Shown here: piece by piece, positions 38,581 through 48,293 of the stretch
Numbering within the stretch: position 1 is the stretch's first letter
Layout: the number at the start of each line of letters is the position of its first letter
Program-made: the position numbers and the translations under genes
NCBI GenBank assembly: GCA_028694155.1
Contig: JAQUTY010000008.1
Span: 14,609-78,608, forward strand
Source: Eubacteriales bacterium
GTDB lineage: Bacteria; Bacillota; Clostridia; Christensenellales; CAG-138
Reading direction: 5' to 3'
DNA: 64,000 nucleotides
The notes under the pieces: model-generated
The model's input: the letters and a program-made list of their open reading frames with translations, nothing else
Told to the model about the DNA's origin: nothing
Databases searched by the model: none

Positions 38581-39200
38581 TCATTGGGTTTTTAGTTGTT
38601 GTCTTGCCTTGCGGCAATAGTAGGCATCGATGTCGATTCCTATGTACCGGCGACGCTCCTGCGCAGCGGCAATACACGTTGCTCCCGACCCGCAGAAGGG
38701 GTCGAGGACTATGTCTCCCTCGCTTGTGGTTGCGGTGATAAGGCGGCGCATCAGCTCGATAGGCTTCTGCGTCGGATGTATCATCTGCGTGGACGGCAGC
38801 TTGGCGACACGCTGTACGTCAGTAGGCCGTGCTGCGGAGCAAATTGTGCCTTAGTGTTTCCCATGCCGTGACTGGCCTTGTCCCATACTATGCATGAGCG
38901 CACAGTGAGATCGGCCCACTCGATTGCTGCTTTCCAGTCGCCCAGCACATCCCATCTTGTGAAGCAGAGAAGTCCGCCATCCTCTTTGAGGATGCGGGCA
39001 GCCTCATGCAGCCACCATATATAGGGATGCTTGTCGCCAGCCACCTGCTGATTGTGCAGTGCTTGATTTTTAGACTTGTAGCTGATTCCATATGGCGGAT
39101 CCGTCAGTATAAGGTCTATGCTCTCCGCTGAGAGCATCGGGAGTAGCTTCATGCAATCCGCATGATAGATGTGGTTCGATGTTACTTCGGGCTTGATGTT
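38581..39200 (-). pseudogene. Beta-class N4/N6 DNA methyltransferase, split by frameshift/deletion
   Basis: TDPPY in one frame; HPTQKP and LDPFCGSG in another; junction near 38830; start uncertain. Confidence 0.8.
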
Positions 39201-39400
39201 TACCTTCTTTCCTTGTATTTGGGTTATATTATCGGCACACCGCCGTAACAAGCTTGCTGCCCCTTGTACGGGGCAGCTCTAGGAGGAGGAAGCGGCGACT
39301 GAGTCGCCGAGCGAAGCTGTGGGGGTAGGCTCCGCCATTTGGACGGGAACCCGTCCAAGGTTGAAAACTTTAATATAATCGCCGTTGCGCCTTGCCGAGA

Positions 39401-43712: not shown

Positions 43713-45812
43713 TCAAACTTGTATTCTTTTGGATGCTGCTTTGGATTGCTCATAGTCGCGAATCATTTTCGCCATCACCATGTCAGCCGACTTTTTATCG
43801 TCCATTGTTTGTCTTCTCTTACGGACCTTGATTTCGGCATTCTCGATTGCAGCTCGGCGGTACTCTGTTGAGGTGATGCCTCCTTGGTACGTTTCGTCTA
43901 AGGCTTCGCCTAACGGATCTCTGTACCGTAGCAGCGCAACGCTCTTCCTAGTCCGTTGGATCTCTTCACGTACCGCCTTTTTTGCAGCTCGTTGTCTGCC
44001 AATGTGTGCGGCCACTCGTTCCTTATCCTCGCCTACTAGAGCGAATGGAGTGTCGAGTGTCGCCGTGCAGATGTGCCGATTGCCGGAGATTACCGTTATT
44101 CCATCCATATCGTCCTTGTTGTAGCGGACGGTAACCTCCTTGCCTATATAATCCTGTAATCTCTCGTCCCAGTACACGCGGTTGTGCAGCCGTATTCCCA
44201 TATATCCAACCTTGCGCGAAACGATTTCAGTCTGCAGCAGTGCCATCATGTCATACGAGGGCATATCCTGTCGTGCTTTGGGCAACGACTTGTATATTTC
44301 TATTGGTGATTGCTCGTTGCCATATCGTTCGTAATGATACGCTGGGATTATTTGCTCATGCCATATTTGTGCGAACTGCTCGATAGTCAGCAACTCACCG
44401 TTAGCCGCCATTCTCTCCAGCTTCGCACGAGATAGGTCCTGTGGACGCTCCGAGGGTTTTCCGCCACACCATCCGGGCAGCTCGCGCATCCATCTGTCCT
44501 CGACGATTCCAAATAGTCTCTCTATGGTCTTCGCCCAAGCCTTGTAGGGTTGTGCATGGATTACACTGATTTGTAGTGCTGCCAATGCGCCTTGACTGCC
44601 CAGCTGCTCATCTATATGCCCAATGACTGCTTTGGGATCGAGACTTCCTTCCATCTTTTTGCTTCGATAATCCTTGCCATTATCGATATACAGCGTTCGA
44701 ACCATCCCTTGAATAATGCTATTCTGTTTCGGCATTATTGCATCTCGCAGGGTTTTGATAATCTCGGTGCTATTGGGGTTCTCTGATATGCGAGTACCCA
44801 CAAAGCAGCCGGACGCTGCGTCTGAGAAGGCTATAATCCACGGACGCATGATTGTGCCATCTGATCCAATTACAAAAATGTCGCACAGGTGATTATCGCC
44901 AAACCAGCAGGCATTGATCTCGGTCGGTTTTTTGCGCTGAATTTTGTGCATGTAGTTGGCTTCCCAGTAACGTGATCCTCGTTGAGCATATGCTATTGCC
45001 CCTTTAGGGAGAGAGGCTACATATCTGTTGATTGTGCATTTGTTGATCGGCAGTACGATCCCTTTTTTATCCGAAGATGAGCAAATCTCATATTGGTCGG
45101 CTGTTTGCCCAAATGCTAACTCCCGACTAGCCAAAGACGACGGATTATGCGCACAGCGTTCACAAGCCTTGTTCCCCAAAGTTGATTGTAACTTTATGAG
45201 CTTAGAAAAAATAGCGGATTGTGGAAGCTTGCTATCCCTGTAAAGTTCATCTCTTATATAGTCTTGTGCCATGAGGCACAGGGTTTTGGACTGTCCGGCT
45301 CCCTGCTTCCGCAGCGATTGCATCAGTCCTGCAATTCCTTCATCCTTATATGCGGAGATCCAGCGATACAGCGTTCTTGTCGTGATCCCATTGTGGGAGG
45401 CGATAGTCTCGGCTGCCGATACTGTGCTGCCGTGTTTAGCATCCAGCATTTCACGCTTATAGTCAAGGACGGCAAAGTATCGCCTATTAAGCTCTTTTAT
45501 TCCCTCATCTCCGTATCTCGCATGATAGGCTGCCATGTCGCACTCGCTCATCTGCTCAGCGTTAATGATATGCCGCATCTGTGCCTCCAGTGGCAGGCTC
45601 GGAACATACACCATGTACGCACGTCCGCCCTGTATATCACTGCCGGCTACCAACATTGCTGTCATTTTGCTTGTTTGACATAGCTCTCGCACCCTGCGCT
45701 CCGATACATCCATAAGCACGGCAGCCGTTGCTGTGCTGACGTATAACGGCGTACCCTCGCTGTGCGGGATGATGCCGTCTAATTGCTCATGTTGTTGGAC
45801 TGCGTATACCAT
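43713..45812 (-). CDS. MuA-like DDE transposase
   Basis: WFGDNH (D), YIDNGKDY (D), AKTIERLF (E); N-terminal HTHs; Mu-transposase C-terminal VRY domain. Confidence 0.95.
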   Translation of the reverse strand: MVYAVQQHEQLDGIIPHSEGTPLYVSTATAAVLMDVSERRVRELCQTSKMTAMLVAGSDIQGGRAYMVYVPSLPLEAQMRHIINAEQMSECDMAAYHARYGDEGIKELNRRYFAVLDYKREMLDAKHGSTVSAAETIASHNGITTRTLYRWISAYKDEGIAGLMQSLRKQGAGQSKTLCLMAQDYIRDELYRDSKLPQSAIFSKLIKLQSTLGNKACERCAHNPSSLASRELAFGQTADQYEICSSSDKKGIVLPINKCTINRYVASLPKGAIAYAQRGSRYWEANYMHKIQRKKPTEINACWFGDNHLCDIFVIGSDGTIMRPWIIAFSDAASGCFVGTRISENPNSTEIIKTLRDAIMPKQNSIIQGMVRTLYIDNGKDYRSKKMEGSLDPKAVIGHIDEQLGSQGALAALQISVIHAQPYKAWAKTIERLFGIVEDRWMRELPGWCGGKPSERPQDLSRAKLERMAANGELLTIEQFAQIWHEQIIPAYHYERYGNEQSPIEIYKSLPKARQDMPSYDMMALLQTEIVSRKVGYMGIRLHNRVYWDERLQDYIGKEVTVRYNKDDMDGITVISGNRHICTATLDTPFALVGEDKERVAAHIGRQRAAKKAVREEIQRTRKSVALLRYRDPLGEALDETYQGGITSTEYRRAAIENAEIKVRKRRQTMDDKKSADMVMAKMIRDYEQSKAASKRIQV

Positions 45813-45824
45813 ACATTCTCCTTG

Positions 45825-45887
45825 TGACCTGCCTCATCAGTGCGGGGTGGTCAACCCCTCGCATACGGGCTTGCGCCCGTTTCGGCT
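45825..45887 (-). ncRNA. Hammerhead ribozyme (type II, pseudoknotted), copy 2
   Basis: GCC-GAAA-CGGGC(GCAA)GCCCG-UA^-stem I with loop UGACC-CUGAUGA-GGC-A-GGUCA; complete catalytic core. Confidence 0.92.
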
Positions 45888-46089
45888 ATGCTGTCTCCGT
45901 CATGCGTGTCGCCGCCCTCAGTAGTCGCAGCAGTCTTTCGTTGTCCCTCTCCAACTTGCTGTTCAGATCCGACTGTTTGCCCGCCTCGTCGATGATGCGG
46001 AGCAGGTAGCTGTACTCATCGTATCTGAGCTTGCCGTTGTCATACAGCTCATACAGCTTTGCCCGTGCCTCAAAATGTTTGTGGCTCAT
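45886..46089 (-). CDS. Small hypothetical protein (67 aa) between the ribozymes
   Basis: RBS AAGGAGG; ATGA overlap with upstream ORF; MSHKHFEARAK...coiled coil; stop overlaps ribozyme 5' end. Confidence 0.65.
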   Translation of the reverse strand: MSHKHFEARAKLYELYDNGKLRYDEYSYLLRIIDEAGKQSDLNSKLERDNERLLRLLRAATRMTETA

Positions 46090-46274
46090 GTCGCCCTCCT
46101 TGTCCGGGCGCAGACGATAAGTGCATCCTCGCCCTTGGTAATGCCATACATTCCCACCCATGAGGGCGACTGTATCAGCCGTGCTGCCTCCGCTGGTGTG
46201 CATTCTCTAAGCTCGTATACCGCCATTCCCTTTAGCCGTCCCATCCGGCGCAGTCCGTGTCCTACCTTTAGCAT
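46086..46274 (-). CDS. Small hypothetical protein (62 aa) between the ribozymes
   Basis: RBS AGGAGG upstream of ATG; translationally coupled to the next ORF. Confidence 0.6.
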   Translation of the reverse strand: MLKVGHGLRRMGRLKGMAVYELRECTPAEAARLIQSPSWVGMYGITKGEDALIVCARTRRAT

Positions 46275-46304
46275 CTTTCATCCTCCTGTAATTAGTATGA
46301 TTGA

Positions 46305-46367
46305 TGACCTGCCTCATCAGTGCGGGGTGGTCAACCCCTCGCATACGGGCTTGCGCCCGTTTCGGCT
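46305..46367 (-). ncRNA. Hammerhead ribozyme (type II, pseudoknotted), copy 1
   Basis: 63-nt exact copy of 45825-45887. Confidence 0.92.
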
Positions 46368-46381
46368 TGTATGCCGCTTAT

Positions 46382-46621
46382 CTATGTGATCTGCTGCGCA
46401 GTCAGATCCCTAAATCCCAGCCCTTTTGAGTAGTCCCACTCGATAGTTCCATCCGGGTACATCCCAATGCCGTATGCCACGAGTGTCCAGCCCGATTGGG
46501 CGTTCTGCATTGTGGCGGATTGTTGTGTTGGTCGCTTGTCGATGCACATGTAAGTCCCGCCTCCGTGATTATTGTATCGCTCCCCATGCTTAGGGCAATA
46601 TGGTGTAATCTCGTTATTCAT
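46382..46621 (-). CDS. Hypothetical phage early protein (79 aa)
   Basis: RBS GAGGAGG, ATGA coupling to upstream gene; SGWTL...DGTIEWDYS. Confidence 0.65.
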   Translation of the reverse strand: MNNEITPYCPKHGERYNNHGGGTYMCIDKRPTQQSATMQNAQSGWTLVAYGIGMYPDGTIEWDYSKGLGFRDLTAQQIT

Positions 46622-47388
46622 CGCTCGTCCTCCTCGCTTCCGCTACAAGGGGTCATTATTTCAGTGACCCCTTGCATCTTGCGTTTTAACCGTGCGAGGA
46701 GCCCTTTTTTGGTTGGCGTCTCCAATCTGCCGTCTGCAAGCCGATCTATGGCGGCAATCAGCATATCGACTTTGGCGCACAGTGAGTTAAAGTTATCAGT
46801 TTCAGCCGCAGACTCTTGATTCGACGCGCATCCTTTTACTCCACTTTGCGCCATGCCGCCCTCGCCTGTTTTTATCCACTTTTCGTTCACATGAAAAATG
46901 GAACAAAAAGCGTGTATTAGTTGATCAGAAGGAACAACTTTGCCGGCTTCAATCCTCGACATATAGGATGGAGTAATGCACAATGCAGCGGCTACGTCTT
47001 GTTGTTTTAATCCCTTCTCTTTTGTGAATTCCTTAATACGTTCACCAATGGAAGCTGTATTGCTGGTGTCCTCCATGCGACCGATGTCTGAGAGGTGTTC
47101 CTGCCAGATGGCTTTTATCTGCTCCTCGGTTTTGCCGATATATACTCCATTTTTCTCCTCCCACAAAATATCCCCGGTTTGGTTTTGTCTGATCGGAGGC
47201 GGCATGATCCATGACTCATTCGTTGCGACATCGGTCATTAGCATTGATCCCAATGGATCAATGTCACGACAACAAAAATTCTTAAATTCTGTGGCTTTAT
47301 ATACTTTTCCGACTTCGATTTTTGCGGCAAAGCGAAAAATGTAGTTGATTTGCTTCTCGTATGTTTTAAGAACCGGTATTATTATCAT
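46618..47388 (-). CDS. XRE-HTH-containing early protein
   Basis: Internal HTH SIGERIK...PSYMSRIEAG...WIKTGEG. Confidence 0.75.
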   Translation of the reverse strand: MIIIPVLKTYEKQINYIFRFAAKIEVGKVYKATEFKNFCCRDIDPLGSMLMTDVATNESWIMPPPIRQNQTGDILWEEKNGVYIGKTEEQIKAIWQEHLSDIGRMEDTSNTASIGERIKEFTKEKGLKQQDVAAALCITPSYMSRIEAGKVVPSDQLIHAFCSIFHVNEKWIKTGEGGMAQSGVKGCASNQESAAETDNFNSLCAKVDMLIAAIDRLADGRLETPTKKGLLARLKRKMQGVTEIMTPCSGSEEDER

Positions 47389-47609
47389 GCTACCTCCTTG
47401 CCAATGAACATCGCTCGAAGCTGTATAACCCCAACACCTAAAATTGGAGCCATTTTATCGACAATATACGGTTTGGGGCGGTTTGACTTACCGCTGATGA
47501 TTGCTGTTAATGTCATTGGACTGATCCCCACCTCTTCAGCAAACTCTCGTTTCGTTCTGCCGGTTAGGTAGATTAAATCCTCTAACCATTTACGCTTTTC
47601 AGATTTCAT
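47385..47609 (-). CDS. Cro/Ner-like small HTH regulator
   Basis: 74 aa HTH (EFAEEVGISPMTLTAIISG); first gene of early operon. Confidence 0.8.
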   Translation of the reverse strand: MKSEKRKWLEDLIYLTGRTKREFAEEVGISPMTLTAIISGKSNRPKPYIVDKMAPILGVGVIQLRAMFIGKEVA

Positions 47610-47691: not shown

Positions 47692-47732
47692 ATTATAGTA
47701 TTGAAATAAAACTTTGTCAAGCGGAAGTTTTA
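47692..47732 (-). promoter_or_regulatory. Early promoter with overlapping operator
   Basis: Perfect TTGACA(47720-47715)-17-TATAAT(47697-47692); inverted repeat TAAAACTT-N10-AAGTTTTA (47707-47732) spans the -35. Confidence 0.8.
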
Positions 47733-47777: not shown

Positions 47778-48293
47778 ATGGCACTGGGAGAAAGAATAAA
47801 ACAAATACGAAAAGAACAAGGGCATACGCAGCTAGCCTTTGCACAACTTCTAGGAGTCTCAAAACCTCATATTTCGAATGTAGAGAGTGGTACAGCAAAT
47901 CCATCTGAGAGCTTAATTAAATCGATCTGCTTTACGTTTGGCATCTCGGAGCTATGGCTGAAAACAGGCGAGGGTCAACGTGACTATTCAATCGTCGACC
48001 AGTATTCTAACTTGTCTCGTCAACAAGCTGACGACATGAATAAGGGGAGTGCAGCGCAATACAAATGGGGCTGGATTGCATCCAGTTTAATGAGCCGATT
48101 CCCATCATTGACAGAACAGAACGCATTAGCGGAATGCCTGGTCAGCAAAACCGCCGCCGATTTTTCTCCTATTTTGGACCATCTAATATTTTTGTGGTAT
48201 AGCGGAGATGACAAGGTTAAAGCGCGAATTGAGACCCGGCTGAACGATCTCCTCGTTGATGCTATTGCTTATTATGAATCTAGGAAACACTAA
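47778..48293 (+). CDS. Prophage repressor (XRE HTH)
   Basis: LGERIKQIRK...HISNVESG...WLKTGEG; divergent from early operon. Confidence 0.85.
   Translation: MALGERIKQIRKEQGHTQLAFAQLLGVSKPHISNVESGTANPSESLIKSICFTFGISELWLKTGEGQRDYSIVDQYSNLSRQQADDMNKGSAAQYKWGWIASSLMSRFPSLTEQNALAECLVSKTAADFSPILDHLIFLWYSGDDKVKARIETRLNDLLVDAIAYYESRKH

What the first reader, a model, noticed from the sequence alone, without database searches (positions are those of the whole stretch)
45825..46367. Twin identical hammerhead ribozymes bracket a two-gene cassette in the Mu-like early operon
Seen: an exact 63-bp direct repeat (45825-45887 and 46305-46367, 480 bp apart). On the transcribed minus strand it reads AGCC GAAA CGGGC GCAA GCCCG UA UGCGAGGGGU UGACC ACCCCGCA CUGAUGA GGC A GGUCA. 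This contains the full hammerhead core (CUGAUGA, GAAA, GUA cleavage triplet), stem III with a GCAA tetraloop, an open 3-bp stem II (type II topology) and a 5-bp pseudoknot (loop UGACC with 3' GGUCA). Established: hammerheads self-cleave leaving 5'-OH and 2',3'-cyclic phosphate ends; such motifs are known from bacterial and prophage intergenic DNA with largely unknown roles. Inference: cleavage after 46344 and after 45864 would cut the early transcript into a regulator piece, a 480-nt RNA carrying exactly the 62-aa and 67-aa ORFs, and the transposase/B mRNA. The 480-nt piece has ends suited to circularisation by self-ligation or an RtcB-type ligase. This would be ribozyme-based mRNA processing in a transposable phage.
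Basis: partly seen in the sequence, partly recalled or inferred. Interest (0 to 1): 0.93.

Follow-up and report, generated by a model that had tools for sequence, protein, structure and literature searches.

The report
Twin hammerheads before prophage transposase
Two real, identical self-cutting hammerhead RNAs flank two small genes just before the transposase of a Mu-like prophage; this layout is already described, probably chops the early message rather than making an RNA circle, and also marks a joint where related phages swap genes.

Summary
Observation confirmed. Two exact 63-nt copies lie 480 bp apart. Both pass Rfam RF02276, sit on the strand of a consensus early promoter, and flank two ORFs whose variants are mostly synonymous.

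The kind is known. Hammerheads flanking short, variable gene blocks in prophages, with processing and circles proposed and circles not detected, are in Perreault 2011. The Mu-like association is in print, reason unknown. This scan found the same layout on other DNA.

In relatives the conserved feature is a ribozyme just before a gene's Shine-Dalgarno (48 of 59 vs 13% at random). Class, number and cargo vary. Best reading: mRNA cutting that gives MuA a fixed leader whatever lies upstream (inferred).

A circle has no support: no RtcB found, partners often missing, upstream copy predicted to misfold.

Unusual here is the exact identity. Pairs in relatives match at 45-56 of 62. In one metagenome both copies share two changes, and flanks reassort across the ribozyme, so the copies probably recombine. 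Cleavage is untested.

The parts
47692..47720 (-). Perfect sigma-70 consensus promoter (TTGACA-17-TATAAT); likely early promoter driving the operon through both ribozymes into MuA
   Evidence: 12/12 match; no minus-strand terminator between 45600 and 48000. Function inferred.
47778..48293 (+). Divergent CI-like repressor, 171 aa
   Evidence: phrog_8/phrog_4, E 3e-14
47385..47609 (-). Cro/Ner-like HTH, 74 aa, first early gene
   Evidence: phrog_8/phrog_3, E 7e-5
46618..47388 (-). 256-aa early protein with an internal XRE-type HTH
   Evidence: PF13560/PF01381, phrog_8
46382..46621 (-). 79-aa accessory ORF ending 15 nt before the upstream ribozyme
   Evidence: No family; 42-43% identical over 53 aa to an early-region ORF of another Mu-like clade (L018, L040, L229, L230, L237)
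46305..46367 (-). Upstream type II hammerhead; predicted cut after 46344; flanks predicted to compete with the active fold
   Evidence: RF02276 40.6 bits; MFE -35.8 vs -26.5 kcal/mol when forced active, pseudoknot not modelled
46086..46274 (-). 62-aa orphan ORF with AGGAGG Shine-Dalgarno
   Evidence: 5 of 7 listed strain differences synonymous; one relative at 90%; no family
45886..46089 (-). 67-aa orphan ORF; its stop codon overlaps the first two bases of the downstream ribozyme
   Evidence: 10 of 12 listed strain differences synonymous; one relative at 75%; no family
45825..45887 (-). Downstream type II hammerhead; predicted cut after 45864; followed at once by AAGGAG and the MuA start at 45812
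   Evidence: RF02276 41.5 bits; the same slot holds a hammerhead in 20 of 20 loci of the closest MuA cluster
43713..45812 (-). MuA-like transposase, 699 aa
   Evidence: phrog_310 E 4e-76; PF09299
42691..43668 (-). MuB-like ATPase, followed by Gam, GemA-like (name recalled) and Mor-like genes
   Evidence: phrog_296 E 7e-44; phrog_491, phrog_286 (unknown function), phrog_532

Best explanation
Both copies are type II hammerheads in the early transcript of a Clostridia-type Mu-like prophage. They cut the transcript at gene junctions. The downstream cut is probably the main one: it frees the MuA/MuB message from whatever accessory genes lie upstream and leaves it a fixed leader of about 50 nt, whose 5'-OH end sits in stem I plus the pseudoknot, directly before the Shine-Dalgarno. 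Each piece then has its own stability and translation (an insulator, like the engineered RiboJ; name recalled). The upstream copy does the same for the 62/67-aa block, probably more slowly. The exact twin arrangement is a by-product of DNA history: the ribozyme is the conserved island between unrelated genes, so crossovers and conversion between copies swap cargo and keep the copies identical. Shown: motif, structure, strand, position rule, variable cargo, reassorted flanks. Inferred: cleavage of these copies, fate of the pieces, the insulating benefit, and the recombination mechanism.
For: RF02276 above gathering. Among 15 distinct relatives, 96% of cells pair and 9 of 20 pairs show double changes. 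Promoter upstream on the same strand. All descriptor hits in L003-L242 lie on the MuA strand (both strands scanned). Of 59 non-redundant ribozymes, 48 have SD plus start within 30 nt downstream (13% of 1180 random placements) and 36 have an upstream stop within 15 nt (7%). The class changes at equivalent slots: type II hammerhead, type I hammerhead (L103) or twister sister (L092 and others), so cleavage rather than sequence is what is kept. The cargo before the pre-MuA ribozyme falls into 4 unrelated flank types while the ribozyme is one type; two upstream by two downstream types occur in all four combinations. Homology blocks start at the ribozyme's first base in L177 vs L003/L170/L174 and in L170 vs L176. 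In run X6 one 63-nt contig at depth 109 (cassette 54, upstream flank 64) serves both positions and differs from the window at 2 letters, and a different sequence follows the MuA start codon in a second element. Tandem prophage hammerheads cleave in vitro and in E. coli (PMC3088659), and three type II hammerheads near phage-like genes were detected cleaved in Desulfovibrio RNA (PMC8782182).
Against: No cleavage or RNA-end data for this locus; only contigs were available. A 5'-OH end can also trigger decay, as for glmS (PMC6765202), and the host has RNase J, so 'insulate' may really be 'destabilise'. In L103 the type I hammerhead would leave no protective 5' hairpin. Only 6 of 27 clusters at 32-40% MuA identity have a detected ribozyme within 500 nt upstream of MuA, so this slot is not essential. 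Closeness to SD and stop may partly reflect that any intergenic element in a compact phage lies between a stop and a start; my random control does not remove this. Mosaic breakpoints also occur away from ribozymes (-377, +258, +2404), and enrichment at ribozymes was not tested statistically. The related loci are kin, not independent samples.
Confidence: 0.55

Rival explanations
1. The cut is a brake: it makes 5'-OH ends that RNase J attacks, lowering MuA/MuB message (glmS-like but constitutive) and limiting transposition.
For: glmS cleavage followed by RNase decay is the one understood bacterial case (PMC6765202). An RNase J family member is present (TIGR00649, 586 bits). Ribozymes sit before MuA and MuB in relatives.
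Against: In type II hammerheads the new 5' end is paired in stem I (sequence), which should hinder a 5' exonuclease (recalled, not tested). Ribozymes also precede small accessory genes.
Confidence: 0.2
2. The elements are kept mainly as DNA homology joints for swapping accessory genes, like the PeSL cassettes of T4-type phages, and cleavage is tolerated rather than needed. Recombination between the twins could also release a 480-bp DNA mini-circle.
For: Reassorted flanks and breakpoints at the ribozyme edge. Shared changes in both copies in X6. PeSL precedent for shuffling and DNA mini-circles (PMC2839356 abstract).
Against: Catalytic core and structure are conserved with compensatory changes, and unrelated ribozyme classes fill the same slots. 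Homology alone would not select for either. Depth shows no clear loss of the cassette in X2 or X3.
Confidence: 0.15
3. One reading: both cuts release a 480-nt RNA that is closed into a circle by self-ligation or an RtcB-type ligase and acts as a stable two-gene message.
For: The ends are chemically compatible, and ligation would rebuild a whole ribozyme (sequence). One RNA run gave a single 247-nt contig, 45975-46221, inside the cassette only; this is one contig in one study and may be DNA.
Against: Circles were sought and not detected for other prophage arrays (PMC3088659). No RtcB in the 90%-complete genome. Only a 3-bp stem II holds the products together, and a closed circle would hold an active ribozyme again (inference). 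12 of 20 closest loci have one hammerhead only. The upstream copy is predicted to misfold.
Confidence: 0.07

Closest known systems
Type II hammerhead ribozymes with loop I / 3'-tail pseudoknot (Rfam RF02276; Perreault et al. 2011, PMC3088659)
   Same: Core, open short stem II, pseudoknot, prophage context; both copies pass the gathering score.
   Different: Nothing in kind. GUA triplet and a one-base bulge in stem I, where close relatives have GUC.
Clustered hammerheads flanking single genes or short gene blocks in prophages (Perreault 2011 Fig. 3; Clostridium scindens, Azorhizobium, Agrobacterium arrays)
   Same: Several ribozymes close together on one strand around short, non-constant gene blocks; processing and circles proposed there.
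   Different: Here the two copies are letter-for-letter identical; none of the other pairs that I compared were. I saw no statement on identical copies or recombination in the passages read.
Self-cleaving ribozymes enriched near Mu-like phage genes (stated in PMC10085705; its sources are probably Roth 2014 and Weinberg 2015, which I did not read)
   Same: Hammerhead and twister-sister ribozymes in Mu-like early operons, with classes interchangeable and the reason unknown.
   Different: This report adds slot-level detail (directly before the SD of MuA, MuB or other genes) for one Clostridial clade; supplements of the source papers may already show it.
PeSL cassettes of T4-type phages (Arbiol et al. 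2010, PMC2839356)
   Same: Short repeated intergenic element between variable small genes that serves as a crossover point; DNA mini-circles possible.
   Different: PeSLs are promoter plus terminator; here the element is a ribozyme, and the window's copies show no promoter or terminator match.
Retrozymes and other hammerhead-bearing circular RNAs (PMC5680766, search listing only)
   Same: Direct repeats holding a hammerhead around a short internal region.
   Different: Eukaryotic, non-coding, dispersed and known to form circles. This element is single-site, protein-coding and embedded in a phage operon, with no evidence of a circle.

Membership tests
Type II hammerhead (RF02276) | Conserved core C3 U4 G5 A6 N7 G8 A9, G12 A13 A14 A15, U16 H17 | tested here: met
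   CUGAUGA, GAAA and GUA present; consensus as given in PMC3088659 methods
Type II hammerhead (RF02276) | Stems I and III closed by loops, stem II open | tested here: met
   MFE of the downstream copy. Double changes in stems I and III; stem II invariant, so no covariation evidence there
Type II hammerhead (RF02276) | Pseudoknot of 4 or more pairs between loop I and the 3' tail | tested here: met
   Four pairs kept in 15 of 15 sequences, two with double changes (7 and 3 sequences); fifth pair unpaired in 7 of 15
Type II hammerhead (RF02276) | Score above the curated threshold | tested here: met
   41.5 and 40.6 bits vs 37
Type II hammerhead (RF02276) | Site-specific self-cleavage | not testable with these tools
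   No raw RNA reads; upstream copy predicted to misfold
Clustered prophage hammerheads (Perreault 2011) | Several hammerheads close together flanking short gene blocks in a prophage | tested here: met
Clustered prophage hammerheads (Perreault 2011) | Flanked genes not constant | tested here: met
   Different cargo and spacings of 497-1550 nt in relatives; the window's two genes were found in none of the other loci held
Mu-like transposable prophage | Divergent repressor, MuA, MuB, Gam, Mor-type activator and terminase in Mu order | tested here: met
   PHROGs hits. Prophage ends and target duplication were not examined.
Retrozyme / ribozyme-made circular RNA | Circular RNA accumulates | tested here: inconclusive
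   Only contigs; no back-joint at the repeat in 4 runs, which contigs cannot show
Retrozyme / ribozyme-made circular RNA | Dispersed multicopy, non-coding element | tested here: not met
   Two copies at one site in the genome; interior is protein-coding
PeSL cassette | Strong promoter plus terminator stem-loop in each unit | tested here: not met
   No consensus promoter or terminator at either copy
PeSL cassette | Recombination between units shuffles genes | tested here: inconclusive
   Reassorted flanks and shared changes; enrichment over other junctions not tested

The most novel reading that the evidence does not exclude
In Mu-like phages the ribozyme is a two-level plug socket. As DNA it is the short conserved homology through which accessory genes (sense or antisense) are swapped in front of core genes, with copies homogenised by conversion. 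As RNA it cuts the cargo off, so that MuA and MuB keep the same leader and output whatever was plugged in. That would answer the open question of why these phages carry so many interchangeable ribozymes.
Probability: 0.3. Interest if true: 0.65.

Novelty: new member of a known kind. Interest (0 to 1): 0.3.

Why it matters
Why bacterial and phage genomes carry self-cleaving ribozymes near Mu-like genes is still open in print (PMC10085705, PMC6765202). This locus does not answer it and is one more example of a layout described in 2011. Its value is as a clean test case: identical ribozymes in two contexts, a clade of relatives with natural swaps of cargo and ribozyme class, and signs that the copies recombine. 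These allow a direct reporter test of insulator against brake, and they warn that a 'circle' seen by PCR here could be DNA or an artefact.

Tried and rejected
- Single-protein locus searches in viral contigs with MuA and the 67-aa ORF, and an exact 26-nt ribozyme pattern, found nothing; the tools may withhold near-identical records.
- DNA search of 60 related genomes: no match outside the own genome.
- GenBank phages hold only distant MuA relatives (24-28%); they were not scanned for ribozymes.
- No function for the 62-aa or 67-aa proteins from PHROGs, Pfam, the Atlas or HMMER. The hits other than the protein itself are long, mostly multi-stretch proteins and were discarded as probable repeat matches. 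No fold or complex prediction was run.
- The longer 105-aa reading of the 67-aa ORF was rejected: 0 of 5 differences synonymous in the extension.
- Pop-out of the cassette: depth of cassette vs upstream flank was 54/64 in X6, about 50/53 in X2 and about 15/17 in X3; too noisy to claim.
- No further ribozyme in window 5000-50000 at E up to 1.
- Low detection in distant MuA clusters (4 of 64) is not absence: the profiles came from the close clade, and Rfam was run on only 34 of 240 loci.
- An antisense promoter overlapping the ribozyme, seen in some relatives, is absent from the window's copies.
- Literature searches for ribozyme + transposable phage and for ribozyme + phage + recombination + mosaicism + hammerhead gave no paper that looked relevant by title and abstract start. 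Weinberg 2015 was not held and Roth 2014 was not requested; their supplements may bear on novelty.

Full report
Observation. The repeat is real: two exact 63-nt copies at 45825-45887 and 46305-46367, 480 bp apart, with nothing comparable in 40-52 kb. Both match Rfam RF02276 on the minus strand above the gathering score (41.5 and 40.6 bits vs 37). They are the only such matches in the 1.8-Mb, 90%-complete genome. I aligned 15 distinct relatives and named the structure myself from those sequences, which favours it over the slid controls. On that alignment 96% of cells pair and 9 of 20 pairs show double changes.

Context. The genes are those of a Mu-like prophage: a divergent CI-like repressor, a Cro-like HTH, a 256-aa HTH protein, a 79-aa ORF, ribozyme, 62-aa and 67-aa ORFs, ribozyme, MuA, MuB, Gam, a Mor-type activator and terminase. 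A 12/12 sigma-70 promoter at 47720-47692 points through the ribozymes, with no minus-strand terminator in between. MuA relatives with names are mostly Clostridia. The two bracketed ORFs look like real genes. Of the strain differences listed (40 shown of 106), 10 of 12 in the 67-aa frame and 5 of 7 in the 62-aa frame are synonymous. Each has one close relative and no family.

Relatives. An alignment of 46 MuA proteins fetched 240 loci. Rfam found a type II hammerhead in 14 of 15 close loci and twister-sister ribozymes in 16 of 19 more distant ones. Profiles built from these hits were run over all 240. In the closest MuA cluster 20 of 20 loci have a hammerhead about 80-90 nt before the MuA start; 8 have a second or third upstream and 12 do not (some with little upstream DNA). 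By cluster at 80% MuA identity, some ribozyme was found in 4 of 6 clusters at 40% or more identity to the window's MuA, 19 of 28 at 32-40%, and 4 of 64 below that, where the profiles are weak. Within 500 nt upstream of MuA the counts are 3 of 4, 6 of 27 and 0 of 17. The slot can hold a type II hammerhead, a type I hammerhead (L103) or a twister sister (L092). Of 59 non-redundant ribozymes, 48 have a Shine-Dalgarno and start within 30 nt downstream (13% of 1180 random placements) and 36 have a stop within 15 nt upstream (7%). Part of this follows from being intergenic in a compact genome. Spacing between paired hammerheads is 497-1550 nt with different cargo. What is conserved is a cut at a gene's front door, not a 480-nt unit.

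What is unusual here. The 10 pairs compared in 8 related loci match at 45-56 of 62 bases. Pairs found among 80 pattern-fetched viral loci match at 44-57 of 63-78 (two of these contigs repeat earlier loci). None is identical. In run X6 a single 63-nt contig at depth 109 differs from the window at 2 letters, while the cassette contig (depth 54) differs at 21 of 476. Depth bookkeeping leaves no room for a second repeat contig in the bins checked. So both copies there carry the same two changes, which points to conversion or re-duplication between copies. This rests on one run and on contig depth; the letters were not shown. In the same run the window-type MuA has depth 15 and a different sequence follows the start codon at 45809, so a second element appears to share the ribozyme-cassette-ribozyme block. 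In the closest cluster the 120 nt upstream of the pre-MuA ribozyme fall into 4 types and the 120 nt downstream into 3. Two upstream by two downstream types occur in all four combinations (L005/L173, L176, L175, L177), which places crossovers in about 90 nt that are mostly ribozyme. Homology blocks begin at the ribozyme's first base in several pairs, but other breakpoints lie elsewhere and enrichment was not tested.

Mechanism. Most likely the ribozymes cut the early transcript at gene junctions, and the downstream cut gives the MuA/MuB message a fixed, structured 5'-OH leader independent of the upstream cargo (confidence 0.55; cleavage and benefit are inferred). The opposite sign, decay through RNase J as for glmS, cannot be excluded: the host has RNase J (PMC6765202). 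The upstream copy's flanks can pair with its stem II strand and core. Forcing the active fold costs about 9 kcal/mol there, against 2 for the downstream copy, with the pseudoknot not modelled. The 480-nt piece may therefore be a minor product. The circle is the weakest reading. No RtcB was found, partners are often missing, and only 3 bp would hold the ends together. The one RNA contig inside the cassette (247 nt, X10) is a weak hint at best.

What is known. Perreault et al. 2011 (PMC3088659; I saw the abstract, passages, the first of two parts of the Discussion and a supplement search) describe multiple hammerheads flanking individual genes or short blocks in prophages with non-constant genes. 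They propose processing into shorter mRNAs or spliced or circular products, did not detect the latter, and showed cleavage of three tandem arrangements in vitro. PMC10085705 (passages) says the strongest ribozyme-gene associations were for Mu-like phage genes and that the reason is unknown. PMC6765202 (passages) says that the class is interchangeable and the role unresolved. PMC8782182 (passages) detected cleavage of three type II hammerheads near phage-like genes in Desulfovibrio RNA. PMC2839356 (abstract) gives the PeSL precedent for shuffling at intergenic repeats. PMC13725137 and PMC5737381 (passages) added nothing specific. Searches showed no paper, by listing, that resolves the function or reports recombination at phage ribozymes; most subscription papers are not in the library. 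Earlier notes of this scan report the same layout in other Mu-like prophages; these are unchecked and not independent support.

Verdict. A real, well-formed pair of type II hammerheads and a new member of a known kind. The exact identity and the reassorted flanks add a modest, testable point about recombination. Interest 0.3.

Noticed in passing
window 46878-47032 (-) and 47820-47954 (+); run X6 record 22: In a strain variant the HTH-coding part of the 256-aa early gene is replaced by an inverted copy of the window's CI HTH sequence, and the CI 5' region is replaced by other letters. A 20-nt inverted repeat (46859-46878 / 47955-47974) lies at one joint. This may be HTH swapping between the repressor and an early gene, which could change immunity specificity.
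   Followed up: partly
L003:1928, L084:4416, L006:2495 (also L104:2507, L174:2475): Antisense accessory genes lie directly 5' of some ribozymes. In three loci a -35-like hexamer falls in the stem III loop read on the opposite strand, 17 nt from an extended -10. These are loose consensus matches; none was found at 6 ribozymes without an adjacent antisense gene, at L106 or in the window.
   Followed up: partly
L003:967, L005:434, L006:4045, L084:5905, L174:2475 and 3284, L176:300, L179:4: Many copies in relatives carry the core variant CCGAUGA (U4C), which PMC3088659 calls slower in vitro; possibly tuned, partial processing.
   Followed up: no
L003, L005, L170, L173, L175-L177 vs L004-type loci: In the closest cluster a twister sister precedes MuB where a 78-aa gene sits between MuA and MuB; loci without that gene, and the window, have none there. 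L006 and L084 have one without an extra gene.
   Followed up: partly
L103:5900-5947: The stop codon of the upstream gene is the UGA of a type I hammerhead's catalytic CUGA.
   Followed up: no
window 45975-46221: The only contig from RNA run X10 lies inside the cassette and is 100% identical; one study, may be DNA.
   Followed up: no
window 38581-39251 (-): Two adjacent ORFs (156 and 67 aa) look by eye like the halves of a frameshifted DNA methyltransferase gene (motifs recalled; ORFs).
   Followed up: no
L260, L261-L264, L290: Other viral contigs carry three or four non-identical type II hammerheads in a row, about 400-1300 nt apart; only 6 of the 80 pattern-fetched loci had a Mu early-gene hit within about 2.5 kb.
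   Followed up: no
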